32,000 nucleotides of DNA, taken from assembly GCF_900199515.1 (NCBI RefSeq), contig NZ_LT963434.1, positions 1,472,180 through 1,504,179 of the forward strand, given 5' to 3'. Below, in pieces: positions 9,645 through 32,000 of this stretch. Source of the stretch: Massilicoli timonensis. Lineage in GTDB: Bacteria > Bacillota_I > Bacilli_A > Erysipelotrichales > Erysipelotrichaceae. Position 1 is the first letter of the stretch, and each line of letters begins with the position of its first letter. A model generated the notes under the pieces. That model was not told the origin of the DNA, made no database searches, and saw nothing but the letters and a program-made list of their open reading frames with translations. A program made the translations under genes and the position numbers.

Positions 9645-10419
9645 AATTGCCTTCCTCCTCGATACTGATGCCCGTGACAAGTTTTGCCTGATTATTTTTA
9701 TCCATCTGATAAACAAATAAAGCGATGGATAATCCGACCAACGCTACGGCGATGGTAGACGCATTGAAACATGCGGCAAGTACAAAGCCGATGATCAAAT
9801 ACTGGATATTGCCTTTTAACGGCATGTATTTTAGTAAAATGGTAAAGCCGATCGCCGGGAAAATACCGCTTGCGATGGTCAAACCGTTCAATACCCATGC
9901 CGGCATCATTTCATTTAATGTTTCGACAAGGGAAGGACCTACCACCAAACAGATGAATACCGGTATTGCTCTTGTCAAAGACCATGTCAATAAGCCGCCG
10001 GCATTTCGGATCATGATTTTCTTCAAGTCGCCGCTTGGCACTACCGCATCTACTTGATGCTGCCAAAAACTGTTGATGATACGTCCCACGACGTCTAACT
10101 GTACGGTCAGCGTTGCGACCGGGATTCCCACTAACGCGGTAACTTCCGCTATACGGCTCACATCTCCTTTACAAAGCGCTACTACGATAATGGCAGCCAC
10201 TTGATAATTCGGAATAGACGCACCGCCGAAATAGTTTAATCCAAGCGCATATGACTGCATCGTTGCTCCGACGATCAATCCCAACTGCGGATCATTCATA
10301 ATGACGCCCGCGATTACACCGGTAATCATCGTATTATGTACAGTCAAATGCACTGACATAAAATCAATCATGATAAGTCCGGATAAAATCGTCAATAAAA
10401 TAATTTGCATTGTGGTCAT
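9634..10419 (-). CDS. PTS mannose family EIIC component
   Basis: Polytopic membrane protein directly upstream of IID. The start was moved to MTTMQIILL at 10419, behind GAGGAGG. Confidence 0.85.
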   Translation of the reverse strand: MTTMQIILLTILSGLIMIDFMSVHLTVHNTMITGVIAGVIMNDPQLGLIVGATMQSYALGLNYFGGASIPNYQVAAIIVVALCKGDVSRIAEVTALVGIPVATLTVQLDVVGRIINSFWQHQVDAVVPSGDLKKIMIRNAGGLLTWSLTRAIPVFICLVVGPSLVETLNEMMPAWVLNGLTIASGIFPAIGFTILLKYMPLKGNIQYLIIGFVLAACFNASTIAVALVGLSIALFVYQMDKNNQAKLVTGISIEEEGNYDE

Positions 10420-10638
10420 GTCAATACCTCCTCTTCTGTCATTGTCTTGTTCCACAAATGATGAAATAGATCATAATATCTATCTTTTCACATTTATGGT
10501 ATCATCAAGCATGATCGGTATTGATAAAAAACGAAAATTTGTATCTAATTAGTAACGTTTATTGAAATATTATTGATCAGGATGTTTTTTATATGCGTAT
10601 AGAAAAGGAAATAAAATAGATGCGATTTTCAGTGTTAC

Positions 10639-10668
10639 TTGAATCACTTCCTTTTTTCAGTATATAAT
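10639..10668 (+). promoter_or_regulatory. Promoter of the GntR-family regulator gene
   Basis: TTGAAT (10639-10644), 18-nt spacer, TATAAT (10663-10668), then RBS AAAGGAG and the ATG at 10690. Confidence 0.45.
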
Positions 10669-10689
10669 GACAGCGATAAAGGAGCACAC

Positions 10690-11424
10690 ATGACAACAAA
10701 AGAAAAATACAAATACAAGATGATCGAAAACTATATCCATGAACGCATCAGAAGCGGGGCATATCCTTCTGATTCTCTGCTTCCGACGCAGCAGGCGTTT
10801 TGCGAGCAGTTTCAGGTAAGCAGAAGAACGGTAAATAAAGCGATGGAATCACTTGTAGAGAACGGGCTCGTTGAGAAAATACAGGGCAGCGGCTGTTATG
10901 TGCGTACGCCTAAATTAAGTAAGCAAAGCATCTATATGGCTTCTTTTTCGGAAGAATACACCGGGAAAGGATTCGACGTATCGACAAAACTGTTATTTTA
11001 TACGGTAAAGCGCATCACTGATTTTCAAGACCGATCATTATCGAAAAAACTGGGCGTTTTGCCTAACAGTCAAGTGCATTATTTTGAACGAGTGCGTTTT
11101 GGCAATGAACGCCCTTTTGCGGTGCAGTATACTTATATTACAAAAGATATCATTCCCGAGTTACCGCTCGCTTATTTGAAAAGTTCCATTTATTCTTATA
11201 TCGAACATACTTTGAGACTGACGATCGGCGATGGTTCAAGCGTATTGTCGATCATATTGCCGCCAAGCGATATCGCCTTGCTGCTAAAGATAAAGCAAAG
11301 CGAACCGGTCGTTTATATTTCGCATATATCAAGACTTCAAAACGGCGTGATCTTTGAATATTCCGATTCATATATCCGCTATGATACTTTTACTTTGCTT
11401 TACAGCAATAAAAGAGAAAAATAG
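10690..11424 (+). CDS. GntR/HutC-family transcriptional regulator (winged HTH plus UTRA effector domain)
   Basis: N-terminal YIHERIRSGAYPSDSLLPTQQAFCEQFQVSRRTVNKAMESLVENGLV is a typical GntR wHTH. About 245 aa, and divergent from the PTS operon. Confidence 0.85.
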   Translation: MTTKEKYKYKMIENYIHERIRSGAYPSDSLLPTQQAFCEQFQVSRRTVNKAMESLVENGLVEKIQGSGCYVRTPKLSKQSIYMASFSEEYTGKGFDVSTKLLFYTVKRITDFQDRSLSKKLGVLPNSQVHYFERVRFGNERPFAVQYTYITKDIIPELPLAYLKSSIYSYIEHTLRLTIGDGSSVLSIILPPSDIALLLKIKQSEPVVYISHISRLQNGVIFEYSDSYIRYDTFTLLYSNKREK

Positions 11425-18490: not shown

Positions 18491-19396
18491 TCACATTTCT
18501 TTTTCCCATCGGCTTTCAGCAGCTTTCCATTGTTGTGAAAACTCTATTTTTCCAACAGCCGCTAGAAAAGGTTCTGTCAAAAATGCCTTGATCGTTTTAA
18601 GCACAGTGCTGAAATGATCCGTTTTAGTGTCTATCTTCAGGCAGAATGCTTTCCACTTCTTCTGCATAGCAGGATCATCTGCAAAGCGCATAACCTGTTC
18701 AAACTGCTCTATCACAAAGCTATGTTCACGATTTTCGAAAGTTTTTTTCAGTGCTTCACTGAGTACTTTGCCGTCAAAATCAAATTTATTGGCAAGATAA
18801 TAAATATCATAGTAATCTTTCATTCGACTGGAAAATTCCATCAGAGTGAGGATTGCATCTATTTTCTCAGCAATCGTTGTTTCAAGAGAATAGGTATTTA
18901 CCACCGGTGCAGTGAAATCATCAAGCTGCGTCGGGATTTTTCGCTTTTCTTGTTTTGGTACGATCACATCGCCCACACCGAAGTCTATATGAAATGGAGT
19001 TCGCGTATTTTTAATACGAGCCACAATAGAAGTCCCGATACCGGCATATTTCTTAGCAACCGCAATAGGCGCAATATCGTTAATTTCAAAGGTAATAAAA
19101 TCATTGCCGGTAGACATAGATAGGATTTCATCCAGTACAGATTTTAACTGTTCGGGCGTATTTGGTACTTTTTGAAGTAGGAAGTCCACATCCATCGTTA
19201 CCCTACTATCAAAATTGGTAACGGAATAAATAAACAAACCACCTTTGAGGATAAGGTTTTCTGCATATTTGGACTTTTCCAAACGGCGCAAAAATTCTTC
19301 TTGACAGAAAAGTTGGAGGCAAAGCTGATAGCTTCTTCCGCTTTCTTTTGCCTTGTTTTTGAGCCGTGCAAGTACGGATGCGGCAATATCAGCCAT
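18491..19396 (-). CDS. abiEii: AbiEii/AbiGii-family nucleotidyltransferase toxin (DUF1814)
   Basis: The N-terminus SVLARLKNKAKESGRSYQLCLQLFCQEEFLRRL...ILKGG is characteristic of AbiEii toxins. About 300 aa. It overlaps the upstream antitoxin gene by 8 nt. Confidence 0.8.
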   Translation of the reverse strand: MADIAASVLARLKNKAKESGRSYQLCLQLFCQEEFLRRLEKSKYAENLILKGGLFIYSVTNFDSRVTMDVDFLLQKVPNTPEQLKSVLDEILSMSTGNDFITFEINDIAPIAVAKKYAGIGTSIVARIKNTRTPFHIDFGVGDVIVPKQEKRKIPTQLDDFTAPVVNTYSLETTIAEKIDAILTLMEFSSRMKDYYDIYYLANKFDFDGKVLSEALKKTFENREHSFVIEQFEQVMRFADDPAMQKKWKAFCLKIDTKTDHFSTVLKTIKAFLTEPFLAAVGKIEFSQQWKAAESRWEKEM

Positions 19397-20030
19397 TGAT
19401 CAACACCTCCATTACATTCATAACTTTTGTATAAAGATTCATCTCTTTTGCATATTTAGACAAGTTCACAAGGTTCTTTTTTTTATCAGCAGCATAAGCA
19501 TTGACAGCCTTATTGAAAATTTCATTGTCGAGTTTTGTGCGATACTTAAAGCAGTCACAAATTGTTCTTTCGCGGTCATATATAGGAAGCATGACGCCGT
19601 TAAAATTGCTTGTAGTTTTACCCATATCTAGGAAATCCTTTTGAATATAATAAGCCTTCATCGGAAATTCTTCAATATTCTTTACGGCACGGGTGGCTGT
19701 TCGCGGCACAGCAATAGACCATTTGCGAGGAGAAAAATCACTATATCCATAATGGAACAAGGCAGATTCCACACAAATAATTCCTTGTGGAAGGATTTCT
19801 CTTATCCACTGTTCCTCTGTTATATGATTGCTCTTTGGAAGCTGATAAATGCCTCTGCGAACCCTCTCGATAACTCCTTCTTTACAGAAAGCCGCTACTT
19901 CATATTTATTTATTCCGCTAGCGACAAAATCCGAAGTTTTTGCAACTCCTCCGTTATTTTCAATTACTTTTATTAAACTTTCTTTTTTATTCAAGCGAGC
20001 ACCAACTTTCTGCATACAAAAAATAAACAT
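19389..20030 (-). CDS. abiEi: AbiEi-family antitoxin/transcriptional regulator
   Basis: The N-terminal wHTH region (GGVAKTSDFVASGINKYEVAAFCKEGVIERVRRGIYQL) is typical of AbiEi. The start is ambiguous: TTG at 20039, ATG at 20030 or ATG at 20015. None has a clear SD. Confidence 0.75.
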   Translation of the reverse strand: MFIFCMQKVGARLNKKESLIKVIENNGGVAKTSDFVASGINKYEVAAFCKEGVIERVRRGIYQLPKSNHITEEQWIREILPQGIICVESALFHYGYSDFSPRKWSIAVPRTATRAVKNIEEFPMKAYYIQKDFLDMGKTTSNFNGVMLPIYDRERTICDCFKYRTKLDNEIFNKAVNAYAADKKKNLVNLSKYAKEMNLYTKVMNVMEVLING

Positions 20031-20041
20031 TGTATGCAATT

Positions 20042-22476: not shown

Positions 22477-24228
22477 ATGGGCATGAGAAAAACTTTGCAA
22501 AAGATATACGCACTGCTGGAATGGAAACAGAAAGTAATCTTTATCATGATTTTGTTGATCATGCTTCTTTCTTCCGCTTTGACACAAGTTACACCAAAAG
22601 CCATTGGCTGGCTGACAGATGACATTTTTGCCGAGGGAAGAATGGCGTTTATCGATTTGCTGCCGATGCTACTGTTGATCTTAATTGTGAATGTCGTAAA
22701 TGAACTGCTTAAAATCTGGCGTAGACTGTTGGTGGAGGATACAGCGACCAAAACTGAAAAGAAAGCGCGCACACTTGTCATTGCTTCTCTCATGAAAGCG
22801 CCGCTGCGTTATTTTAAGGAAAACATGACCGGCAATATCCACGGCAGGTTGAATCGCTGTTTAGAAGGAACGATCAAACTAGAAAAATTGATATTTATGG
22901 ATTTAGCGCCAGCAGTATTTAATAGCATTGCTGCTGTGATTGTGATTTTTACGACCCTGCCTTTTACATTGGCGCTGCCGATGTTGCTGGTAATACCGAT
23001 CGGTGTATTGATCGTACTTCGACAGATCACAACACAAAAAGGCATACGAATTGCATTGCTGGAAACAAAGGCAAATATGGATGGTTCGCTGGTGGAATTG
23101 CTGAATGGAATCGAAGTGATCCGAATGGCAAACAGCACAATGATCGAAGAGCATCGTTTTTCGATCAAATCTGAAGAACTGCGTGAGAAAGAAATGAAGC
23201 ATCATAAACAGATGGCGAAATATGATGCGATGAAGTTTTTTAATGAAGTCTTTTTTACAGTGTTCATTATCGGTGCATCTGCTTATTTGGCGACACAGGG
23301 AATCATCAGTGTCGGTGCAGTGCTGACTGCCTATCTTTGTTTTTCTCAACTGATCAAACCTCTAGAGGAACTGCATCGGATTTTAGATGAATTATCAGAG
23401 AGTTTTGTACTGGCAGAGGATTTTTTCAAAATGGCGGAAATTGCCTGTGATTTTTCTTATCAGCCAGTTTCGGCGAAGCAACTGCTGTTCAAAAAGCACG
23501 ATATGATCTTCGCAGAAAAACTACGGCTAGCCTATGAATCAAATGAAGAAGTGCTGAAAGGCATTGACCTGAAAATAAAGAGCGGTTCTTTTATTGGGAT
23601 AGCCGGGCCCAGTGGGTGTGGTAAATCTTCACTGATCAAAGCAATTTGCAAGTTGGAAAAAAGTGAAGGAGCGCTATATATCGATGGTAGGGAAATAGAA
23701 TCACTGTCGCGGGAAATGTTGTCGGAGTTGATTGCATTGGTACCGCAAAATCCTTTTTTGATCGCAGGAACGATTTATGAGAATATCTGCTATGGATTGA
23801 AAGTGATGCCGAGTGAAGAGGAAGTCATGCAGGCGGTCGCAAAGGCAGGTCTCACGGAATTTGTGGAAAGCCAGCCGCAGAAGCTTCATACGCTGATAGC
23901 GGAAAGAGGCAATAATTTATCAGGCGGGCAACGGCAGCGAATCGCATTGGCGAGGATCTTTTTGCGTAAACCGAAAGTTTTAATTTTAGATGAGGCGACT
24001 TCAGCGCTGGATAATACTACAGAGCGTTTTGTTCAAAAGGAAATTGAGCGGTTGAAAGAAGAAAACGATATGACGATTATCTCCATAGCACACCGATTGA
24101 CGACATTACAAAACTGTGATGAGATCCTGGTAATGTATAACGGAATGATCGTACAGAAAGGGATTTATAAAGAATTGATTGAAAAAGAAGGCATTTTTAA
24201 TGACATGTATCATGGCAGATTAAAATGA
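22477..24228 (+). CDS. Fused ABC exporter (N-terminal 6-TM domain plus C-terminal ATPase; MsbA/MdlB-like half transporter)
   Basis: Walker A GPSGCGKSS, signature LSGGQRQRIALAR, Walker B VLILDEATSALD, H-loop SIAHR. The N-terminal half is hydrophobic. RBS is AAAGGAG. Confidence 0.85.
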   Translation: MGMRKTLQKIYALLEWKQKVIFIMILLIMLLSSALTQVTPKAIGWLTDDIFAEGRMAFIDLLPMLLLILIVNVVNELLKIWRRLLVEDTATKTEKKARTLVIASLMKAPLRYFKENMTGNIHGRLNRCLEGTIKLEKLIFMDLAPAVFNSIAAVIVIFTTLPFTLALPMLLVIPIGVLIVLRQITTQKGIRIALLETKANMDGSLVELLNGIEVIRMANSTMIEEHRFSIKSEELREKEMKHHKQMAKYDAMKFFNEVFFTVFIIGASAYLATQGIISVGAVLTAYLCFSQLIKPLEELHRILDELSESFVLAEDFFKMAEIACDFSYQPVSAKQLLFKKHDMIFAEKLRLAYESNEEVLKGIDLKIKSGSFIGIAGPSGCGKSSLIKAICKLEKSEGALYIDGREIESLSREMLSELIALVPQNPFLIAGTIYENICYGLKVMPSEEEVMQAVAKAGLTEFVESQPQKLHTLIAERGNNLSGGQRQRIALARIFLRKPKVLILDEATSALDNTTERFVQKEIERLKEENDMTIISIAHRLTTLQNCDEILVMYNGMIVQKGIYKELIEKEGIFNDMYHGRLK

Positions 24229-24390: not shown

Positions 24391-24876
24391 ATGAAGGGAA
24401 GCGGATTTCGGAAGATCGCAGATGCCTACCATGCTGCTCATAATTATCGGGATGAATTGGAGCTTAAATTTTATTCCGATGCAGCTTCGTTTCAAGTTAC
24501 ACTGTATAATTTGAATTATGGAACTGCAATAAACGCAACTAAAGCTATGATTGAAGATGAAAATGTTGCGATTGCTCCTGATTATCTTGCGATTGAGGTT
24601 GCGATTGATGGATTGAACGCAAGCCAAACTACGATTAAAAAAGCAAAAACAATATTCGCAAGCATGGGCATTGATGGCATCTTTGGACGTTCCGACATAG
24701 CCGCAATTACAAGCGATTCCGTTACTGCTGCCGGCAAACTCATTATAAAGCTGAAAAACGCAGATTTAATTGAAGCCGTCAGCGGGTTTGGAAAAGGGAA
24801 ATACAAATTTAAGGTTCCAAAACAAAAAGATGATACCTGTTATCAGGCATACGGTCGATCATGGACATTCGATTAA
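24391..24876 (+). CDS. Hypothetical protein; resembles the C-terminal part of AlbA_2/HATPase_c_4 putative ATP-binding regulators (possible 5'-truncated remnant)
   Basis: It begins at ..KGSGFRKI.., followed by ELELKFYSDAASFQVTLY and a C-terminal wHTH-like segment. In full-length family members this region sits at the end of a protein of more than 400 aa. There is no SD before the ATG, and the frame stays open upstream only to 24343. Confidence 0.35.
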   Translation: MKGSGFRKIADAYHAAHNYRDELELKFYSDAASFQVTLYNLNYGTAINATKAMIEDENVAIAPDYLAIEVAIDGLNASQTTIKKAKTIFASMGIDGIFGRSDIAAITSDSVTAAGKLIIKLKNADLIEAVSGFGKGKYKFKVPKQKDDTCYQAYGRSWTFD

Positions 24877-25319: not shown

Positions 25320-26564
25320 TTATAATTTACGCTTGATGATTTCTTCAATAAAACGAAGCAGTGTACCTTTGCTGAACTGTTTATAATATAGCGCAAACTC
25401 GTTATATATAATTTGATTTAAGATAGAATTGTCATAAGATATTTCTTTGAAGAAAGAAAATAAGCGTCGTTCTCTTTGATAAATTGGCAGATCGTACTCA
25501 AAATATGTTTTCAGATCTACATAAAGCAAAGAAGCATTTTCCATAATTGCACACTGGCTGATGATTTGGAATGGGTGCTTTGTAATATTGGAAGCGGAAT
25601 AATAAAGCAAGACAGCGATAATAGGAACTTTCGTTTGTAAAAAGTTATCCTCAAATAACTGTATGACTTTATCATATTCTTTATGATCAAACGAGTGAAT
25701 GATCGTATTGATAAGCCAAGCAAATTTCTTTTTCGGGTGAACCGGTTTGGTTTTGATCATCTGCTCCACTTCTTGATAGATTTCTGAATCATCTTCATTG
25801 TTTTCATGCACATAATTCAGTTTCATCACATAGACATCAAAAGAGCGATTATAGTTTTCGTTCTTTAATAAATCGTCCAGTAAAGCGTTGATTTGATAAA
25901 TATGTTTCGGAATGGATACAGTAGAAGTATCATATATCAATAGATCAGTTTCCAAAATGATTGAAGATAAATTCTGCTTTTGTACTTCTTCTAAAACTTT
26001 TCCGCATGCTTTCATATCTAAATGGTATTTATAATAGGAGCGAAAACACAGATCATATAACATGATTTGCAATTCATCGGGGAACAGAAAAGAAACATGC
26101 AAAAAGTGTTCCAATAAGTCGATGTCAATTTTTTCTACCTTATGATGGAAATCTTGAACAGCTTCTAAGAGCAGCCGGTATTCATTTTCAAATACAATAT
26201 CTGCTGCGAGCGGTTTAAGCAATGCTTCGCATAACTGATAGACTCCTTCATAATCAAGATAAAGAAACGCGTGATAGAGCGCATGGACAGTTTCCATATG
26301 CTTGGAAAAATAATCAGAAGCGCCTTCTTCATAACGAAGATCAAACTTGTCAAGCAGTTGAAGATACACTTTATCTTTAATTAAAGTCGGATTTTCAAGT
26401 AGTTTTTGATAAGTATGAAAAGAACAAATCGTTACTAGATTTGCATTGTGCATGGTAAATCCGAATTTTGTTTTAGAAAACAAAGCGTCGCCGTCTTTCG
26501 TGTATGTTTCAGCGCGATAGATTTCCAGTAATTTTGAAAGATGTTCTTTTTCTATGATCGGCAT
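25320..26564 (-). CDS. Hypothetical helical-repeat protein; candidate RNPP/NprR-like peptide-responsive regulator
   Basis: 414 aa with RBS AAGAGGA. It is rich in Y/F/L-spaced helical repeats. The N-terminal ...VTICSFHTYQKLLENPT-LIKDKVYLQLLDKFDL weakly resembles the helix 3-5 region of Rgg/PlcR-type HTH domains (ICxxSxLSxIExG). It lies directly downstream of a secreted-peptide gene. The functional call is inference. Confidence 0.35.
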   Translation of the reverse strand: MPIIEKEHLSKLLEIYRAETYTKDGDALFSKTKFGFTMHNANLVTICSFHTYQKLLENPTLIKDKVYLQLLDKFDLRYEEGASDYFSKHMETVHALYHAFLYLDYEGVYQLCEALLKPLAADIVFENEYRLLLEAVQDFHHKVEKIDIDLLEHFLHVSFLFPDELQIMLYDLCFRSYYKYHLDMKACGKVLEEVQKQNLSSIILETDLLIYDTSTVSIPKHIYQINALLDDLLKNENYNRSFDVYVMKLNYVHENNEDDSEIYQEVEQMIKTKPVHPKKKFAWLINTIIHSFDHKEYDKVIQLFEDNFLQTKVPIIAVLLYYSASNITKHPFQIISQCAIMENASLLYVDLKTYFEYDLPIYQRERRLFSFFKEISYDNSILNQIIYNEFALYYKQFSKGTLLRFIEEIIKRKL

Positions 26565-26627: not shown

Positions 26628-26765
26628 TTAGTCGATATAATAACAATTTGGCCCTGTGCAATATGGAGCAGGTACCGGATCTCCGTCATTGGCAAATACC
26701 GTTGTCGATGTAAATGCAATCGTGAAGATAAAGCAAGACAATGCCGCTAAAACAACTTTTTTCAT
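26628..26765 (-). CDS. Unannotated 45-aa secreted peptide (Sec signal peptide plus 20-aa two-Cys C-terminal part)
   Basis: Manual reverse-complement translation gives MKKVVLAALSCFIFTIAFTSTTVFA|NDGDPVPAPYCTGPNCYYID*. A strong RBS AAAAGGAGG sits 6 nt before the ATG (26765). It has its own extended -10 promoter and a classic n-h-c signal region with a VFA cleavage motif. It falls below the ORF-track size cutoff. Confidence 0.7.
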   Translation of the reverse strand: MKKVVLAALSCFIFTIAFTSTTVFANDGDPVPAPYCTGPNCYYID

Positions 26766-27003: not shown

Positions 27004-28404
27004 ATGCAAACAAGACCTTTCATTCAATTATTTAAGACCACGTCGCATTATTATTTTTACGATGCGTACGTCAATCAAATCTCTGAACTCTCCGCAGCCG
27101 GCTATCAGTATTTGAAAGAGCATCAAATGATTGATTGTTTTTATAATGAAGAAATAGCACAATTATATAAAGAAGGATTTTTGCATGAAAATCCTATTTT
27201 AACATTTCAGCATCCGGCTACGGATTTCGTTGAAGATCTTACGACAAGAAAAGCAGGCACATTGGTCTTACAAATAACGCAGAACTGCAATTTACGCTGT
27301 TCCTACTGCCCTTACTCGCAAAGCGGCGAAAAACACAGGCATCACACCAATCAAAATATGAGCTGGGAGACCGCTAAGAAAGCAGTCGATTTCTACTATG
27401 ATAAATCCATCGATGCCGATACGGCAAATATTTCTTTTTACGGTGGAGAGCCGTTGCTGCAGTTTTCTTTGATGAAAGCAGTCGTCGCCTATTCCAAAAA
27501 GAAATTTGAAGGGAAGAAATGTGTGTTCAGCATTACGACCAACGCAACATTATTGACAAAAGAAATTGCCGATTTTTTGATTACAAATGAGTTTCGTCTG
27601 GCAATCAGTTTAGATGGAGATAAAGAAAGCAATGATCGCAATCGTAAATTTGTTTCTCAAAAAGGCAGCGTATTCGAGAAAGTCATCGAAACATTGCAGT
27701 ATCTCTATGAAAACGCACCGGAATTTGCGAAAAAGATCAACTTAAGCATGGTGATCGATCAAAGAAAAGATCTGAAAGGATTTCTGCATCTGTTTCGGGA
27801 ATATCCGTTTCTGAATCAAATGCAGATCAGCGTCAGCTTAATTGAAGATGATTATTTGGAAAATGAGGTTAGAGAGTCGAAAGCTTTTTATGAAGAATTT
27901 AGCTATTATCGTTTCTTGTCTTATTTAAGTGTCATATCTCCGCTGGATTTTACTGAAGATCTTAAATTTTTCGCTTCGATGAAAGAGAGCTATAAAAAAT
28001 TGGTGCTGCCATTTCAAGCGTCCGCAATCGGTAAAACGGCAATTCCAAGCGGGCAGTGCATTCCGGGCAATACCAAAGTAATGGTAACGGTGCAGGGCAA
28101 ATTATTCCCTTGTGAAAAAGTGAGCGAACGCAGAGAGGATTATTGCATCGGCACGCTTGATACAGGATATGACTACGAAAAGATAAAGGAAATCCTGAAT
28201 TTTTCAAGATATACCTTTGCCCTTTGTCGAAACTGTCCGGCCTTTCGTGAATGCACGCTCTGTTTCAAAACACACGGAGCGGGCGGTTTTAGCAGTACCG
28301 CTACCAAGATGAAATACTGTGCATTATGCAAACAGAATTTCGTTGAAGATTTGCGGGTACGCATGTATTTTAAGGAAATGGCGGATTGGAAAGGACGTGG
28401 ATAA
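27004..28404 (+). CDS. Radical SAM / SPASM-domain peptide maturase (CcpM-like, Cys-rich-peptide maturase type)
   Basis: CNLRCSYCPY (CxxxCxxC) follows a ~95-aa N-terminal domain. A GGEPLL motif is present. The C-terminal auxiliary-cluster cysteines are CIPGN...FPCEK, CRNCPAFRECTLC and YCALC. The ATG at 27004 follows GAGGGGAGGG; the track's GTG extension is unsupported. Confidence 0.85.
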   Translation: MQTRPFIQLFKTTSHYYFYDAYVNQISELSAAGYQYLKEHQMIDCFYNEEIAQLYKEGFLHENPILTFQHPATDFVEDLTTRKAGTLVLQITQNCNLRCSYCPYSQSGEKHRHHTNQNMSWETAKKAVDFYYDKSIDADTANISFYGGEPLLQFSLMKAVVAYSKKKFEGKKCVFSITTNATLLTKEIADFLITNEFRLAISLDGDKESNDRNRKFVSQKGSVFEKVIETLQYLYENAPEFAKKINLSMVIDQRKDLKGFLHLFREYPFLNQMQISVSLIEDDYLENEVRESKAFYEEFSYYRFLSYLSVISPLDFTEDLKFFASMKESYKKLVLPFQASAIGKTAIPSGQCIPGNTKVMVTVQGKLFPCEKVSERREDYCIGTLDTGYDYEKIKEILNFSRYTFALCRNCPAFRECTLCFKTHGAGGFSSTATKMKYCALCKQNFVEDLRVRMYFKEMADWKGRG

Positions 28405-28405
28405 G

Positions 28406-29461
28406 ATGGGGAAAACAGTGATCTTTCCATTTACGCTGGAGAACAGCAGCTTCTGTCAGGCATATTTAGATCAAGATGACGCCTGTGTGCTCGCATCCTT
28501 ATCGGGAACCGGTACGATCGATCAAAGCATTGGCAAAGCGCTGAATCGTTTGGATGGTACAGGCAGGATCGTCGATATCCACAGCATAGACCTTCGTGAG
28601 GTCGATAAGATCATTCTGCTTGAAAGCAAAAACAGCGAACTATATGAACACATTGACGAACTGCTTGTGAAATGGAATGCCTATCAAATAGAAGTGATCA
28701 GTTTTTCAGATAAATGCAGAGAGTTCATGCCGATGGCTGTTTTGCAGTGTCGTGATTTTCATGTTACTGATTCCTATCACTATGTGTTTATCGACAAGCC
28801 GATCATTTTTGTCGGTGGTATCAAAGAAACATCTGAAATTGCATGGCTCTCTTATCAGATCAAAAAAAGATTCGAGAAAAGAAAGCTCAAAAGCATCGTG
28901 ATTTCCCGATACGGATACAGCATCGATCAAGAATGCTATCCATATCCCGATGAATTTGTATCCGATCGTATAAGCGCAGAGTATAAAGTCTTACTGCTGA
29001 ATCAGTATCTGCAGTTTCTGATCCGAAAGCATGAACCGGATGTCATACTCATCGAAGTGATCGGTGGACCGTTAAGATTTGATTATCATGTATTTAATTA
29101 TTTCGGTGTCTATTACTATATCACTTCACAGGCGGTAAGCGCCGACTTATTTCTATGCACACTGCCGATCGGCGAATATGACGATGCGTATTTTATGAAG
29201 CTGAATGATTATATCCGACATAAATTTGATCTTACGATCGACGCTGCCTGTTTGATGAATATCAAATTTGAAGATAGTTTGAGCGTCACGATCGAAAATG
29301 ATGATGAATACTACTATGTATCTGATTCGATCTTGCAGCGATACTTAGAAAAGAACAGACAGGTGCGGGTCGTTCCTTTCGGCGCATGCACAGATGAAAG
29401 TTATTTAGACGCGGTATTTGCCGCCATATTGAAAAAACTGGAAGGTGCAGAAGATGAATGA
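28406..29461 (+). CDS. Peptide-maturation-system protein of unknown function (accessory partner of CcpM-type maturases)
   Basis: 351 aa, with its ATG 1 nt after the maturase stop. I see no recognisable catalytic motif. The position between the rSAM and ACP-like genes matches my recollection of a conserved clostridial cassette. Confidence 0.55.
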   Translation: MGKTVIFPFTLENSSFCQAYLDQDDACVLASLSGTGTIDQSIGKALNRLDGTGRIVDIHSIDLREVDKIILLESKNSELYEHIDELLVKWNAYQIEVISFSDKCREFMPMAVLQCRDFHVTDSYHYVFIDKPIIFVGGIKETSEIAWLSYQIKKRFEKRKLKSIVISRYGYSIDQECYPYPDEFVSDRISAEYKVLLLNQYLQFLIRKHEPDVILIEVIGGPLRFDYHVFNYFGVYYYITSQAVSADLFLCTLPIGEYDDAYFMKLNDYIRHKFDLTIDAACLMNIKFEDSLSVTIENDDEYYYVSDSILQRYLEKNRQVRVVPFGACTDESYLDAVFAAILKKLEGAEDE

Positions 29462-29723
29462 ACGTGAATGGATAGCGGAATTGGAGAAGATATTAGAAAC
29501 GATCTATCAAAAAAAGATCAGGATCGAAACGGTACTGTCAAACAGTCTGTTTGGCGCACCGTATTACTTTACGGCAATCGAACTGGTGTATTTCGTGTAT
29601 TTGCTGGAGAATGATTATTCGATCGCTTTTGACAAAAAATTCTTCTTAGATCGCAGCAATCTTTCTATGCAGGATCTCTTGACGTATTTGGTGCAGGCGA
29701 CGAATAAAAATTCAATAAACTGA
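29454..29723 (+). CDS. Acyl-carrier-protein-related small protein lacking the phosphopantetheine serine
   Basis: 89 aa. The helix pattern ...LFGAPYYFTAIELVYFVYLLENDYSIAF...MQDLLTYL parallels ACP ...DLGLDSLDxVELVMxLEEEFGIEI...V.DLv.Yi, but DSL is replaced by YYF. It overlaps the previous gene by 8 nt. Confidence 0.55.
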   Translation: MNEREWIAELEKILETIYQKKIRIETVLSNSLFGAPYYFTAIELVYFVYLLENDYSIAFDKKFFLDRSNLSMQDLLTYLVQATNKNSIN

Positions 29724-29743
29724 GAAAGAAAGGAGGGAATGAG

Positions 29744-29911
29744 ATGTTGAAGAAAGTAAACAAAGCGACTTTGATGACAACGGAAATTGCGCCGAAGGCA
29801 ACTTGTTACTGTAAGGCGACTTGCTTTGGACCGGCTTCTGAGAGATCGAATTTTTATGAAGCTAATCAACAAGCTGCTTCTAGATACGGCAAAGTTTCAG
29901 ATGTTCAGTAA
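29744..29911 (+). CDS. Unannotated 55-aa RiPP precursor peptide (three Cys in a CYCKATC core)
   Basis: Manual translation gives MLKKVNKATLMTTEIAPKATCYCKATCFGPASERSNFYEANQQAASRYGKVSDVQ*. The RBS AAAGGAGGG (29729-29737) sits 6 nt before the ATG. It is the last gene of the maturase operon and is followed by a GC-rich hairpin. It falls below the ORF-track cutoff. Confidence 0.7.
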   Translation: MLKKVNKATLMTTEIAPKATCYCKATCFGPASERSNFYEANQQAASRYGKVSDVQ

Positions 29912-29920
29912 TCATGGGCA

Positions 29921-29953
29921 ATAGGGGGGAGTACAGGGTTTTGCTCCCCCTAT
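29921..29953 (+). terminator. GC-rich hairpin after the precursor gene (attenuator / stabiliser; no clear U-tail)
   Basis: ATAGGGGGGAG (29921-29931) pairs with CTCCCCCTAT (29944-29953) across a 12-nt loop. Confidence 0.5.
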
Positions 29954-30021
29954 GTCATAATAAAAGAAAAACAATCATAACGAATTGATAAAGAGATATA
30001 GATTAAGAGGAGGGATCAAAT

Positions 30022-30915
30022 ATGGAAAAGATCGTAGAAATTAAGGGATTATGCAAAAAATTCGGTAAGACTGAGGTACTGCATGACGTATCATTTGATA
30101 TTTATGAAGATGAGATCGTCGGATTTATCGGACCAAACGGAGCCGGTAAAAGTACGACAATGAAATGTATGTGCAATCTGATCTTTCCAAGCGCAGGTAC
30201 GATAAAGATATGCGGCTATGACATCGTAAAAGAAAGAGAAAAAGCATTGGCAAAACAGTCCTCGTTGATCGAAACTCCGGGATTGTTTCCAAATTTGACC
30301 GGAAAAGAAAACATCGAATATTTTGCCTCTTATAAAAAAATACCGCAGTCTAAAATAGAAGAGATCATTCAATTCATGAATTTAGGCGATGGTCTTTACA
30401 GACGAACCGCAAAATATTCACTGGGAATGAAACAGCGATTGGCGTTAGGGATCGCCTTGTTATCCGACCCGAAATTGTTGATCTTGGATGAACCGACCAA
30501 CGGGCTGGATCCGGCAGGTGTATTTGACCTTAGAAATCAGTTAAAAACACTGGCAAAAGAAAAGCATGTATCCATACTGGTATCCTCTCATCAGTTAGGA
30601 GAATTAGAGAAAATATCCGACCGCTATATTTGCATCAACAAAGGAAAGATCGTAGAAAATCCAAAGCAGATGAAAAATGACAGCTGCTATCACATTACAA
30701 TGAAAAAAACAGAGCAAGTGGAAAAGTTGATGGAACAGGCAGCATCTGTCTACTCTTACACTTATCAGGAAAACGGATATGTCATACTGGTAAAAGAAAA
30801 TCACAAAATACAGGATATTTTGCATTTATTTCAAAAAGAACAGATCGAATATGAGGACATCACGAAAAAAGTCATTGATATTGAAACCATGTATAGTGAA
30901 CTATATGAGGCATGA
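30022..30915 (+). CDS. ABC-2 type transporter ATP-binding protein (bacteriocin export/immunity type)
   Basis: Walker A GPNGAGKST, signature YSLGMKQRLAL, Walker B LLILDEPTNGLD, H-loop SSHQ. RBS is AAGAGGAGGG. Confidence 0.85.
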   Translation: MEKIVEIKGLCKKFGKTEVLHDVSFDIYEDEIVGFIGPNGAGKSTTMKCMCNLIFPSAGTIKICGYDIVKEREKALAKQSSLIETPGLFPNLTGKENIEYFASYKKIPQSKIEEIIQFMNLGDGLYRRTAKYSLGMKQRLALGIALLSDPKLLILDEPTNGLDPAGVFDLRNQLKTLAKEKHVSILVSSHQLGELEKISDRYICINKGKIVENPKQMKNDSCYHITMKKTEQVEKLMEQAASVYSYTYQENGYVILVKENHKIQDILHLFQKEQIEYEDITKKVIDIETMYSELYEA

Positions 30916-30917
30916 TC

Positions 30918-32000
30918 ATGTTAAAGTTAGAATTGAAACGACTGTTTAAGAGTCCGAAAAATATAGGGGTCGTCTTCTGTATGATCGTGTTTTCGTTTTT
31001 TATCCTGTACCAGTTGAATGAAAAAAGAGTCGAATATGATGAAGTGCAGTTAAAGGAACTGTATGCGGCGAGTGCGATTGCCAAACAAGAAAAAGAACAA
31101 CTGAAATATGTAGAAGAAACGCCGGAAGTGGCAGAAGCAAATGAGTATTGGGATTTCGAGGGCAGATATGCCAGTTATCTGCGCGGAAAATTTAATCCTC
31201 TAAGCGATAAAGATATTTTTACGAAAGAAGAACGAACTACCCTTGAAAAAGATCGTTATCGGCACATATTAGATGCGTGGGATAAAGAATACAATAAGGC
31301 ATATTTGGAACTTGCCAAGACACAGAAGGAATTGAAAAAAGAAATCATATTGCGAGAGTATTTGTTGGGACATAAGATCGAGCAGTATGATACGCCGTAT
31401 GAAGTAAATACGATGAACTATTTAGTGAATTTCTTTCAATCACCGAATGTATTTGTCTTTCTGATTTTAATCGCATTTGCTTCGATCGATGTCATTACCA
31501 AGGATTTTGACTGTGATAGTTATAAACCGTTATATACGATGCCGGTTGCCAGAAAGAAAATTATTCGATCAAAGGTCGAAGCGGTATTGTTGTTTGCGCT
31601 GTTTGCGATTAGTGTTGCCATTCTCCTGCCGTCAGTTGCGGCCGCATGGATCGGTGGAACAGGAACTTTGGAATATCCGCAAGTGATGGAAGATTTCAGT
31701 ATATGGATCGCATTTGATTATGTGCTGAAATGTATGTTGATCTTGCTGGTATTGATTTTGTTTACGATTTCTGTCATTACTTTGGTATCTGTTTCTTTAA
31801 GAAACGGTACATCGGCAATGATGGCGATCGGTTCCTATTTCATTATTTTATATTGCATGAGTGAATTAGAACTTCGCTTCCCCAATGTTTTATACTATAT
31901 TCCGCTTTTCTCTGTTGATGTTGCTTATACCGTTAATGTCAAATACTTTTCGATCCTGCTGTTCAGTGTTTGTTCGCTGTTTATGATTATATTAAGCATC
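30918..32000 (+). CDS. ABC-2 type transporter permease (partial, runs off the window)
   Basis: The ATG lies 2 nt after the ATPase stop. My translation is open for 361 codons to the window end. TM1 (GVVFCMIVFSFFILY) is followed by a ~165-aa charged helical loop and then several TM segments. It is absent from the ORF track because no stop lies in the window. Confidence 0.7.
   Translation, partial: MLKLELKRLFKSPKNIGVVFCMIVFSFFILYQLNEKRVEYDEVQLKELYAASAIAKQEKEQLKYVEETPEVAEANEYWDFEGRYASYLRGKFNPLSDKDIFTKEERTTLEKDRYRHILDAWDKEYNKAYLELAKTQKELKKEIILREYLLGHKIEQYDTPYEVNTMNYLVNFFQSPNVFVFLILIAFASIDVITKDFDCDSYKPLYTMPVARKKIIRSKVEAVLLFALFAISVAILLPSVAAAWIGGTGTLEYPQVMEDFSIWIAFDYVLKCMLILLVLILFTISVITLVSVSLRNGTSAMMAIGSYFIILYCMSELELRFPNVLYYIPLFSVDVAYTVNVKYFSILLFSVCSLFMIILSI

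What the first reader, a model, noticed from the sequence alone, without database searches (positions are those of the whole stretch)
29744..29911. Unannotated precursor peptide: short leader, CYCKATC core and an unusually long Cys-free C-terminal tail
The sequence is MLKKVNKATLMTTEIAPKAT-CYCKATC-FGPASERSNFYEANQQAASRYGKVSDVQ. All three Cys lie within 7 residues (a KATC-Y-CKATC near-repeat), followed by 28 residues without Cys. In sactipeptides, N-terminal Cys donors are bridged to acceptor residues further toward the C-terminus, giving a hairpin. A similar donor/acceptor layout is possible here. The tail could instead be a follower peptide. There is no Gly-Gly or other obvious leader cleavage motif, and no protease gene lies in the window. 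An antisense 85-aa track ORF (29615-29872) overlaps it and is probably spurious.
Basis: partly seen in the sequence, partly recalled or inferred. Interest (0 to 1): 0.8.

Follow-up and report, generated by a model that had tools for sequence, protein, structure and literature searches.

The report
Three-cysteine radical SAM peptide precursor
This is a real 55-codon gene for the substrate peptide of the neighbouring radical-SAM enzyme set; it is a cysteine-poor relative of a bacteriocin family that is known from sequence but not chemically characterised, and its tail differs sharply between otherwise near-identical gut strains.

Summary
The ORF at 29744-29911 is exactly as described and is a real gene. 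It has an AGGAGG ribosome-binding site 7 nt upstream and a stable hairpin after the stop. Four full-length in-frame alleles occur in gut metagenomes, and substitutions in its reading frame are under purifying selection.

It is already called in NCBI (WP_180963115.1, "hypothetical protein", Massilicoli timonensis), so it is uncharacterised rather than unannotated. It is the fourth gene of an operon: radical-SAM/SPASM enzyme, TIGR04066-like protein, ACP-related protein, peptide, then ABC transporters.

Cassettes whose TIGR04066-like protein is only 22-27% identical carry a small ORF in the same slot. These come from Tissierella pigra, [Clostridium] innocuum, a Bacillota MAG and one metagenome contig. 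All have the same build: a ~20-aa leader with an invariant Glu, a cluster opening C-x-C, and a 28-35-aa Cys-free tail.

The canonical CLI_3235/CcpM bacteriocin precursor (SacP23) has this build too, so the long tail is a family trait. The window cassette belongs to a sister clade. It scores below every curated cut-off, has only 3 Cys and lacks the S8 protease.

New here: tail codons 31-47 form an old allelic segment (dS 0.4 to >1) in a locus about 98% identical. Cross-link chemistry is inferred, not shown.

The parts
29731..29736 (+). Shine-Dalgarno AGGAGG, 7 nt before the ATG
   Evidence: Read directly from the sequence. Comparable SD sequences precede the equivalent ORFs in L009, L010, L014 and L015.
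29744..29911 (+). Precursor peptide gene, 55 aa plus stop (WP_180963115.1)
   Evidence: Four full-length in-frame alleles. Same position and architecture in distant cassettes.
29744..29803 (+). Leader-like region, codons 1-20 (boundary approximate). Contains the family-invariant Glu14 in T-E-I-A.
   Evidence: Alignment A4: M1 and E14 are invariant across 9 sequences, including canonical SacP23. The cleavage site is unknown.
29804..29824 (+). Cys cluster C21-Y-C23-K-A-T-C27 (CxCxxxC)
   Evidence: C21, C23 and C27 are invariant in A4. L009 has identical spacing, CSCRAAC. This segment is invariant among the four full-length alleles; a fifth 49-aa allele (P0005/L008) lacks CYCKAT.
29825..29908 (+). 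Cys-free tail, codons 28-55
   Evidence: Equivalent tails of 28-35 aa occur in all relatives and in SacP23.
29833..29884 (+). Allelic hot segment within the tail (codons ~31-47; extends to codon 53 in allele P0004)
   Evidence: 15 mismatches per 60 bp against about 1% background. Four alleles with flanks >98% identical. Tail dS 0.38 to >1.7 and dN 0.19-0.35, against dS <=0.11 and dN <=0.03 for codons 1-31.
29917..29956 (+). Stem-loop just after the stop codon, with no U-tract. Possibly a transcript stabiliser or partial terminator.
   Evidence: MFE -21.8 kcal/mol, z = -3.18. Conserved in the alleles. The simple terminator scan did not call it.
27004..28404 (+). Radical SAM/SPASM maturase, CcpM-like
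   Evidence: TIGR04068 416.5 bits (cut-off 500). The next-best hits include sacti-/ranthipeptide and other thioether-forming maturases. Pfam Radical_SAM. CNLRCSYC motif and C-terminal Cys motifs seen in the translation. Closest solved structure is CteB 5WGG, E = 1.6e-24.
28406..29461 (+). TIGR04066-like maturation-system protein
   Evidence: TIGR04066 113.8 bits (cut-off 200). Nearest non-self relatives <=28% identical. AF2 model pLDDT 86.9 with a DUF1611/DgcN-like fold, TM 0.59.
29454..29723 (+). ACP-related protein lacking the phosphopantetheine Ser
   Evidence: TIGR04069 18.5 bits (cut-off 70). In the alignment with E. coli AcpP the Ser36 column is Ala here and S/P/P/P/A in relatives.
30022..30915 (+). 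ABC transporter ATPase (lantibiotic-protection type); export or immunity candidate
   Evidence: TIGR03740 199.7 bits, Pfam ABC_tran.
30918..32000 (+). ABC-2 permease; runs off the window end
   Evidence: PF12679. Full length is 378 aa in L001.
22477..24228 (+). MsbA-type ABC exporter without a peptidase domain; a conserved element of these cassettes
   Evidence: Equivalent 571-590-aa exporters occur in L005, L009 and L014/L016.
25320..26564 (-). 414-aa helical protein of unknown family, divergent from the operon, with its own allelic hot spot (codons 181-222). Possible regulator; its link to the peptide is not established.
   Evidence: No family or PDB hit. Hot spot seen.
26628..26765 (-). 45-aa ORF with a Sec-type signal peptide and a variable C-terminus; possible pheromone pro-peptide. 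Its link to the peptide is not established.
   Evidence: An analogous regulator plus signal-peptide ORF is present in L009.

Best explanation
The 55-aa product is the ribosomal precursor (substrate) of the co-transcribed CcpM-like radical SAM/SPASM enzyme. The proposed steps are as follows.

1. Residues 1 to about 19 act as a leader that docks on the enzyme. Glu14 is family-invariant.
2. The enzyme uses the thiols of C21, C23 and C27 as donors and makes up to three thioether cross-links to C-H carbons of other residues, each costing 2 Da.
3. The Cys-free tail is present during modification and probably supplies the acceptor carbons, giving a hairpin like those of sactipeptides. One arrangement that fits the conserved positions is C27-F37, C23-N41, C21-A44.
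4. The DUF1611-like TIGR04066 protein and the Ser-less ACP-like protein act as accessory or scaffold partners.
5. The product is exported, and the producer protected, by the flanking ABC transporters.

Shown here: the gene is real, it is the conserved partner of the cassette, and it has the architecture of the CLI_3235 family. Inferred: thioether chemistry, from the enzyme's relatives. Speculative: which residues act as acceptors and how the leader is removed.
For: - **Gene reality.** Shine-Dalgarno site, hairpin after the stop, in-frame alleles, and dN about 0 over codons 1-31.
- **Operon context.** The peptide ATG lies 20 nt after the ACP-like stop codon. The gene order rSAM / TIGR04066-like / ACP-like / peptide / ABC is identical in L001-4 and in [Clostridium] innocuum L016-18.
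- **Conserved partner.** L009, L010, L014 and L015 each carry an SD-preceded small ORF right after the ACP-like gene. Cys clusters are CSCRAAC, CACSRHPCHC, CACKRNCRC and CACKAYKCFC, followed by 28-35 Cys-free residues. In alignment A4, M1, E14, C21, C23 and C27 are invariant.
- **Same build in a canonical member.** SacP23 has this architecture, and its cluster gave antimicrobial activity when expressed in B. subtilis (PMC10731318).
- **Enzyme relatives.** Best hit is TIGR04068 CcpM. Next come the lachnocin maturase, RumMC (sactipeptide), PapB (ranthipeptide), QhpD and the SCIFF maturase; the characterised ones among these form thioethers. The closest solved structure is CteB.
- **Tail is functional, not junk.** It carries deeply diverged alleles with dN/dS below 1, and N36, F37, Y38, A40, N41, A44, Y48, G49, K50, V51, V54 and Q55 are invariant. 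Y-E-x-N-Q is shared with the distant L009 peptide.
Against: - The peptide gives no hit to TIGR04065, even at E <= 10, whereas SacP23 scores 40 bits.
- All three enzyme-side proteins score below their curated cut-offs.
- No CcpM-type product has a published structure in the searched literature, so thioether formation is inferred by analogy only.
- No protease is present to remove a leader.
- The proposed acceptor residues are not conserved in L010, L014 or L015.
- Tail variability does not map significantly onto one helix face (moment 0.38, p = 0.09).
- A one-Cys deletion allele exists, but on a 2x-coverage contig.
Confidence: 0.6

Rival explanations
1. It is the precursor, but the tail is a follower or docking element. 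Cross-links form locally within or next to CYCKATC, as in the short Cys-to-nearby-residue loops of ranthipeptides, and the tail is trimmed off or serves only in recognition or export.
For: The leader and Cys cluster are invariant among the full-length alleles while the tail varies. Thr precedes C21 and C27, and C21 to T26 is an i+5 pair (read from the sequence). The closest solved enzyme, CteB, makes a short-range link (chemistry from prior knowledge). Cys number varies from 3 to 7 across the family while tail length stays at 28-35 aa.
Against: An unconstrained follower would drift at the background rate. Instead the tail has dS 4-15 times the flanks, dN/dS below 1 and twelve invariant positions, which means it is maintained and selected. 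T26 is Ala in L009. No trimming protease is present.
Confidence: 0.2
2. The modified peptide, or its tail, is a strain-specific signal rather than a toxin. Its allelic tail is read by the adjacent 414-aa protein, in the manner of pherotypes.
For: Within about 8.6 kb at about 98% identity, three segments are strongly elevated in divergence: the peptide tail, codons 181-222 of the 414-aa protein, and the C-terminus of the 45-aa secreted ORF. All three differ among the three haplotypes available. The regulator-like hot spot has 10-19 non-synonymous changes, closer to the tail's 10-16 than to the 45-aa ORF's 1-4. There is precedent for quorum-sensing-linked radical-SAM RiPPs (PMC9389541).
Against: The 45-aa signal-peptide ORF immediately upstream of the 414-aa gene is the simpler ligand candidate. 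The 414-aa protein matches no family or structure, and its model is unusable. Three physically linked haplotypes give no statistical power. The ABC-2 'protection'-type transporters suggest a toxic product.
Confidence: 0.12
3. It is a small unmodified Cys peptide, for example metal-binding or regulatory, that only happens to sit in the operon. The true rSAM substrate would then lie elsewhere.
For: There is no precursor-family HMM hit. The canonical cassettes L005 and Roseburia show no obvious adjacent precursor.
Against: Position, leader motif and Cys cluster are conserved across cassettes with 22-27% enzyme identity. The window has no paralogue or other Cys-rich small ORF with such conservation.
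Confidence: 0.05
4. It is a chance ORF, and the antisense 85-aa ORF is the real gene.
For: None beyond the existence of the antisense ORF.
Against: The Shine-Dalgarno site, in-frame conservation, purifying selection in the forward frame, NCBI and metagenome gene calls, and conserved synteny all argue against it.
Confidence: 0.01

Closest known systems
CLI_3235-family bacteriocin precursors (TIGR04065 / PF27803) with the CcpM system (TIGR04068 rSAM, TIGR04066, TIGR04069), for example SacP23 of Paenibacillus polymyxa #23
   Same: Both have the same three enzyme-side protein families. The peptide build is also the same: a ~19-aa basic leader with T-x-E-A, a Cys cluster opening C-x-C, and a ~28-aa Cys-free polar tail. 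An MsbA-type ABC exporter is present in the cluster.
   Different: The peptide is not detected by TIGR04065. The rSAM, TIGR04066-like and ACP-like proteins all score below the curated cut-offs: 416 against 500, 114 against 200, and 18.5 against 70. It has 3 Cys rather than 7. The precursor is encoded after the ACP-like gene rather than at the head of the cluster. There is no S8 protease, and ABC-2 'protection'-type transporters are present instead.
Sactipeptides (subtilosin A, thuricin CD, ruminococcin C)
   Same: The Cys donors lie N-terminal to a Cys-free stretch. The maturase is an rSAM/SPASM enzyme related to RumMC, scoring 181 bits. The cluster also carries ABC export or immunity genes.
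   Different: Cys spacing is CxCxxxC rather than regular i/i+4. Two extra accessory proteins are present (DUF1611-like and ACP-like). Linkage to C-alpha is not demonstrated. The rSAM is well below the RumMC cut-off of 720 bits.
Ranthipeptides (SCIFF/CteA-CteB thermocellin; PapA-PapB freyrasin)
   Same: The closest solved structure is CteB. PapB and SCIFF maturase models score 175 and 131 bits. Substrates are Cys-rich.
   Different: There is no CX3D repeat and no SCIFF six-Cys C-terminal motif. The long Cys-free tail is absent from those precursors. Scores are below the cut-offs.
Quorum-sensing-controlled radical-SAM RiPP clusters of streptococci (streptide, tryglysin; shp/rgg)
   Same: A small secreted pro-peptide gene and a cytoplasmic protein lie divergently upstream of an rSAM-RiPP operon.
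   Different: The 414-aa protein has no detectable Rgg/XRE or TPR domain. No regulation has been shown.

Membership tests
CLI_3235 family bacteriocin precursor (TIGR04065) | Score at or above 26 bits against the TIGR04065 HMM | tested here: not met
   No hit even at E <= 10 for two alleles. The positive control SacP23 scored 40.2 bits.
CLI_3235 family bacteriocin precursor (TIGR04065) | Architecture: short basic leader with a conserved Glu, Cys cluster starting C-x-C, Cys-free C-terminal tail | tested here: met
   In alignment A4 with SacP23 and four sister-clade peptides, M1, E14, C21, C23 and C27 are invariant.
CLI_3235 family bacteriocin precursor (TIGR04065) | Encoded next to the TIGR04068 + TIGR04066 + TIGR04069 trio | tested here: inconclusive
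   All three are the best or only family hits, but each is below the equivalog cut-off: 416.5/500, 113.8/200 and 18.5/70. Canonical L005 passes all three at 618, 417 and 70.2.
CcpM system (canonical cassette) | Subtilisin-like S8 protease in the cluster | tested here: not met
   Present in SacP23, Roseburia and L005. Absent from the window and from L001, L009, L010 and L016.
Radical SAM/SPASM peptide maturase substrate (RiPP precursor in general) | Intact rSAM enzyme with CxxxCxxC and C-terminal auxiliary-cluster cysteines, co-transcribed with a small peptide gene | tested here: met
   Pfam Radical_SAM and Fer4_12. CNLRCSYC and C-terminal Cys motifs in the translation. CteB homology. A 20-nt gap to the preceding gene.
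Sactipeptide | Cys sulfur to alpha-carbon thioether links | not testable with these tools
   This needs MS/MS or NMR of the modified peptide.
Sactipeptide | Maturase meets a sactisynthase model (for example RumMC NF035951, cut-off 720) | tested here: not met
   181.5 bits.
Ranthipeptide | Cys sulfur to beta- or gamma-carbon thioether; PapB or SCIFF-type maturase | tested here: not met
   PapB model 175.2/340 and SCIFF maturase model 130.9/425. The chemistry itself is not testable here.
Double-glycine leader bacteriocins | GG/GA cleavage motif and a C39-peptidase ABC exporter | tested here: not met
   The peptide has no GG. The exporter aligns only from about position 137 of the peptidase-containing ABC models and has no C39 hit.

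The most novel reading that the evidence does not exclude
The Cys-free tail is a strain-specificity module kept polymorphic by balancing selection. On this reading the cross-linked peptide acts as a kin-discriminating signal or toxin, and its tail co-diversifies with the adjacent 414-aa protein of unknown fold and the 45-aa secreted peptide. Together they would form a three-part 'pherotype' locus in a gut Erysipelotrichaceae species.
Probability: 0.15. Interest if true: 0.75.

Novelty: new variant of a known kind. Interest (0 to 1): 0.5.

Why it matters
The CcpM/CLI_3235 family is widespread in gut and soil Firmicutes and is named in NCBI annotation. No product structure and no role for its two odd accessory proteins has been published in the literature searched.

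This sister clade also occurs in the common gut species [Clostridium] innocuum. With only three cysteines it offers the simplest substrate for working out that chemistry. Its precursors are currently labelled 'hypothetical protein', and the curated models miss them.

The sharply bounded, anciently diverged tail alleles point to strain-level selection on the product in the human gut. They sit in genomes about 98% identical, beside two other allelic segments in a putative signal/receptor pair.

Tried and rejected
- **Known-family filing.** TIGR04065 and Pfam scans of the peptide gave no hit, so it is not filed as a family member.
- **Finding relatives.** A word-indexed search with the TIGR04066-like protein gave only 2 hits. 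The exhaustive search gave 775 distant ones. The first 22-sequence alignment was too divergent for locus scanning; a 6-sequence one worked but returned few loci.
- **Canonical cassette L005.** No precursor was found on the contig.
- **Diversity-generating retroelement as the source of tail variation.** Rejected: there is no template repeat or paralogue in the window, and substitutions are of all types.
- **Amphipathic-helix reading of tail variability.** Not significant (moment 0.38, p = 0.09).
- **Structure of the 414-aa protein.** The single-sequence model was unusable (pLDDT 40), and PDB sequence hits were only noise-level (best E = 0.56).
- **Rfam.** Nothing in the window.
- **Simple terminator scan.** It did not call the post-ORF hairpin because there is no U-tract.
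- **Background mismatch count.** Misregistered by indels and discarded; one search is used instead.

Full report
**Observation.** Cys residues are at 21, 23 and 27, followed by 28 residues with no Cys. AGGAGG lies at 29731-29736, 7 nt before the ATG, and the ATG is only 20 nt from the stop of the preceding gene. A stem-loop at 29917-29956 follows the stop (-21.8 kcal/mol, z = -3.2). The KATC near-repeat is real at the DNA level, and a third KAT unit occurs at codons 7-9. No protease domain was found in the main long ORFs of the window that were scanned, and the 583-aa ABC exporter has no C39 peptidase domain. The antisense ORF 29615-29872 overlaps two supported forward genes, has a TTG start without a Shine-Dalgarno sequence, and is not conserved. 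The gene is not unannotated: the identical protein is WP_180963115.1, 'hypothetical protein', from Massilicoli timonensis, Erysipelotrichaceae.

**Is it a gene?** Four further protein variants (76-87% identical) occur in gut metagenomes, on contigs with the same gene order. Codons 1-31 show dN of 0-0.03. One 49-aa variant has lost exactly 18 bp between the two AAGGC(A/G)ACTTG repeats, which leaves a single Cys. It comes from a 2x-coverage contig and may be either an error or a null allele.

**Context.** The peptide is the fourth gene of an operon.

| Gene | Coordinates | Best family hit | Score / curated cut-off |
|---|---|---|---|
| Maturation-system protein | 28406-29461 | TIGR04066 | 113.8 / 200 |
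| ACP-related protein | 29454-29723 | TIGR04069 | 18.5 / 70 |

- These three genes are followed by the peptide, an ABC ATPase and an ABC-2 permease.
- After CcpM, the rSAM's best matches include sacti-/ranthipeptide and other thioether-forming maturases: RumMC, PapB, QhpD, the SCIFF maturase, and the uncharacterised lachnocin maturase.
- Its closest solved relative is CteB, 5WGG, at E = 1.6e-24.

- The TIGR04066-like protein is isolated in sequence space. Its best non-self relatives are at most 28% identical, and 775 relatives score E <= 1e-3.
- Loci recovered with a profile of it, plus exact look-ups, gave cassettes from a Bacillota MAG (L009), Tissierella pigra (L010), [Clostridium] innocuum (L014, L016-18) and one metagenome fragment (L015).
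- In every one, an SD-preceded ORF of 59-64 codons lies immediately after the ACP-like gene:
  - L009: ...EGILRA-CSCRAAC-PGWAKEQKETYEDNQ...
  - L010: ...REIANA-CACSRHPCHC-...
  - L014: ...TIESSTRSAR-CACKRNCRC-...
  - L015: ...TAEKMVNSN-CACKAYKCFC-...
- Each continues with 28-35 Cys-free residues.
- In the joint alignment, M1, E14, C21, C23 and C27 are invariant.
- The ORF is therefore the conserved partner of the cassette. No other small ORF is.

**Relation to the known family.**
- The canonical CLI_3235-family precursor SacP23 reads MRKLVKRSTNVGDTIEAFGCGCSCYCPCSCYCAGSLTRSSNTSRESDGSYRRDNGTGIGN. Its cluster contains TIGR04068, TIGR04066, TIGR04069, an ABC exporter and an S8 protease, and gave anti-MRSA activity in B. 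subtilis (PMC10731318).
- SacP23 has the same plan: short leader, Cys cluster, 28-aa Cys-free tail. The 'unusually long' tail is thus a family trait.
- Membership by the curated models nevertheless fails. SacP23 scores 40 bits on TIGR04065, while the window peptide is not detected at all.
- A canonical cassette (L005) passes all three enzyme cut-offs at 618, 417 and 70 bits. The window, L009, L010 and L014 all fall below them, at 416-458, 111-182 and 18-37 bits.
- This sub-threshold group also differs in three other ways: the precursor lies after the ACP-like gene, there are 3-5 Cys, and ABC-2 transporters replace the S8 protease.
- I treat it as a sister clade of the CcpM system.
- No biochemical characterisation of any CcpM product was found. 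CcpM is mentioned only as a 'previously annotated' cluster.

**New observation: an allelic tail.**
- The window and metagenome haplotypes are about 98% identical over 8.6-10 kb, yet mismatches pile up at 29833-29884: 15 in 60 bp.
- Four alleles share an essentially identical ACP gene, intergenic region, first 31 codons and 3' flank, but differ at most positions of codons 32-47, and up to codon 53 in one allele.
- Both dS (0.38 to >1.7) and dN (0.19-0.35) are raised, with dN/dS below 1. Flanking dS is at most 0.11.
- This is the signature of old alleles kept in a recombining, homogenised background. It is not the signature of a relaxed follower or of recent positive selection alone.
- Twelve tail positions stay invariant: N36, F37, Y38, A40, N41, A44, Y48, G49, K50, V51, V54 and Q55. 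Y-E-x-N-Q is shared with L009.
- The Paenibacillus pair P0161/P0164 and the L009 pair P0160/P0163 likewise vary mainly in the tail.
- There is no template repeat and no base-specific substitution spectrum, so a diversity-generating retroelement is excluded.
- Variability does not map significantly to one helix face (p = 0.09).

**Two further hot spots in the same locus.**
- One is at codons 181-222 of a 414-aa helical protein of unknown family (25320-26564, minus strand). There pS is 0.37-0.45 in comparisons with the window allele, against 0.03-0.12 in the gene's terminal segments (codons 1-55 and 223-414).
- The other is the C-terminus of a 45-aa ORF with a signal peptide just upstream of it, which reads PYCTGPNCYYID, ...CSGPNCIFID or ...CTGPNCHYID in the three haplotypes.
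- All three haplotypes differ at all three sites.
- L009 carries an XRE-type regulator plus a signal-peptide ORF at the equivalent place.
- This resembles a quorum-sensing pair controlling a radical-SAM RiPP operon, for which streptococcal precedents exist (PMC9389541). Nothing here demonstrates it: the 414-aa protein has no family or PDB match, and its model is unusable.

**Accessory proteins.** The TIGR04066-like protein models confidently (pLDDT 86.9, pTM 0.87). It resembles the two-domain DUF1611 proteins TM0796, Ava_3511 and the N-acetyltransferase DgcN at TM about 0.59, and more distantly BioD/MinD-type NTPases. Its Walker-A position reads VGGIKETSE (read from the sequence). The ACP-related protein lacks the phosphopantetheine serine: that column is Ala here and S/P/P/P/A in relatives. 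Both therefore look like non-catalytic or unconventional partners. Their role is unknown.

**Mechanism.**

| Status | Claim | Confidence |
|---|---|---|
| Shown | Real gene; conserved cassette partner; CLI_3235-like architecture | about 0.9 |
| Inferred from enzyme relatives | The three thiols become thioether cross-links | about 0.6 |
| Speculative | The tail supplies the acceptors; C27-F37, C23-N41, C21-A44 fits conserved positions and a near-constant index sum, but is not conserved in L010, L014 or L015 | about 0.35 |

How the leader is removed is unknown, since there is no protease. The main rival is local cross-linking with a processed tail. The most novel reading still open is a pherotype-like specificity role for the tail.

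**Verdict.** It is a Cys-poor, sub-threshold variant of a family that is known bioinformatically but is chemically uncharacterised. The allelic tail is the unexpected feature.

Noticed in passing
window 26628-26765 (-) and 25320-26564 (-): A 45-aa ORF has a Sec-type signal peptide and a haplotype-variable C-terminus, PYC(T/S)GPNC(Y/I/H)(Y/F)ID. It lies directly upstream of a 414-aa helical protein with no family or PDB match, whose codons 181-222 are an allelic hot spot. This may be a pheromone/receptor pair divergent from the RiPP operon.
   Followed up: partly
L009 3371-4297 (-) and 4397-4549 (+): A distant cassette has a 308-aa protein with an XRE-HTH-like N-terminus (by eye; not scanned) and a 50-aa signal-peptide ORF just upstream of its rSAM gene. 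This mirrors the window's arrangement.
   Followed up: no
window 29454-29723 (+): The ACP-related protein has Ala at the position of the phosphopantetheine-attachment Ser, and relatives have S/P/P/P/A. It is unlikely to be a true carrier protein.
   Followed up: yes
window 28406-29461 (+): The TIGR04066-like protein has a DUF1611/DgcN-like two-domain fold (TM about 0.59) with a degenerate Walker A (VGGIKETSE). The SacP23 paper suggested an 'immunity' role for it, which this fold does not support.
   Followed up: partly
L008 559-708: A 49-aa allele has an 18-bp in-frame deletion between the two AAGGC(A/G)ACTTG repeats. This removes CYCKAT and leaves one Cys. The contig has only 2.2x coverage.
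   Followed up: partly
L012 8648-10018; L001 ~10312-10914; L002 10866-11837 (beyond the window end): A second permease-like membrane gene downstream of the ABC-2 permease is intact in one haplotype (456 aa) but carries different deletions in others.
   Followed up: partly
L014 3586-5004 and L017 3263-4669: In some [Clostridium] innocuum contigs the rSAM gene is split into 101/105-aa and 354-aa pieces. It is intact (468 aa) in L016 and L018. This may be strain-level inactivation or a sequencing error.
   Followed up: no
window 18491-20039 (-): An AbiEi/AbiEii type IV toxin-antitoxin pair lies a few kb upstream of the cluster.
   Followed up: no
window 24391-24876 (+): A 161-aa ORF without family hits lies between the ABC exporter and the 414-aa gene. 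It is shortened to 118 aa in L002 and L012.
   Followed up: no
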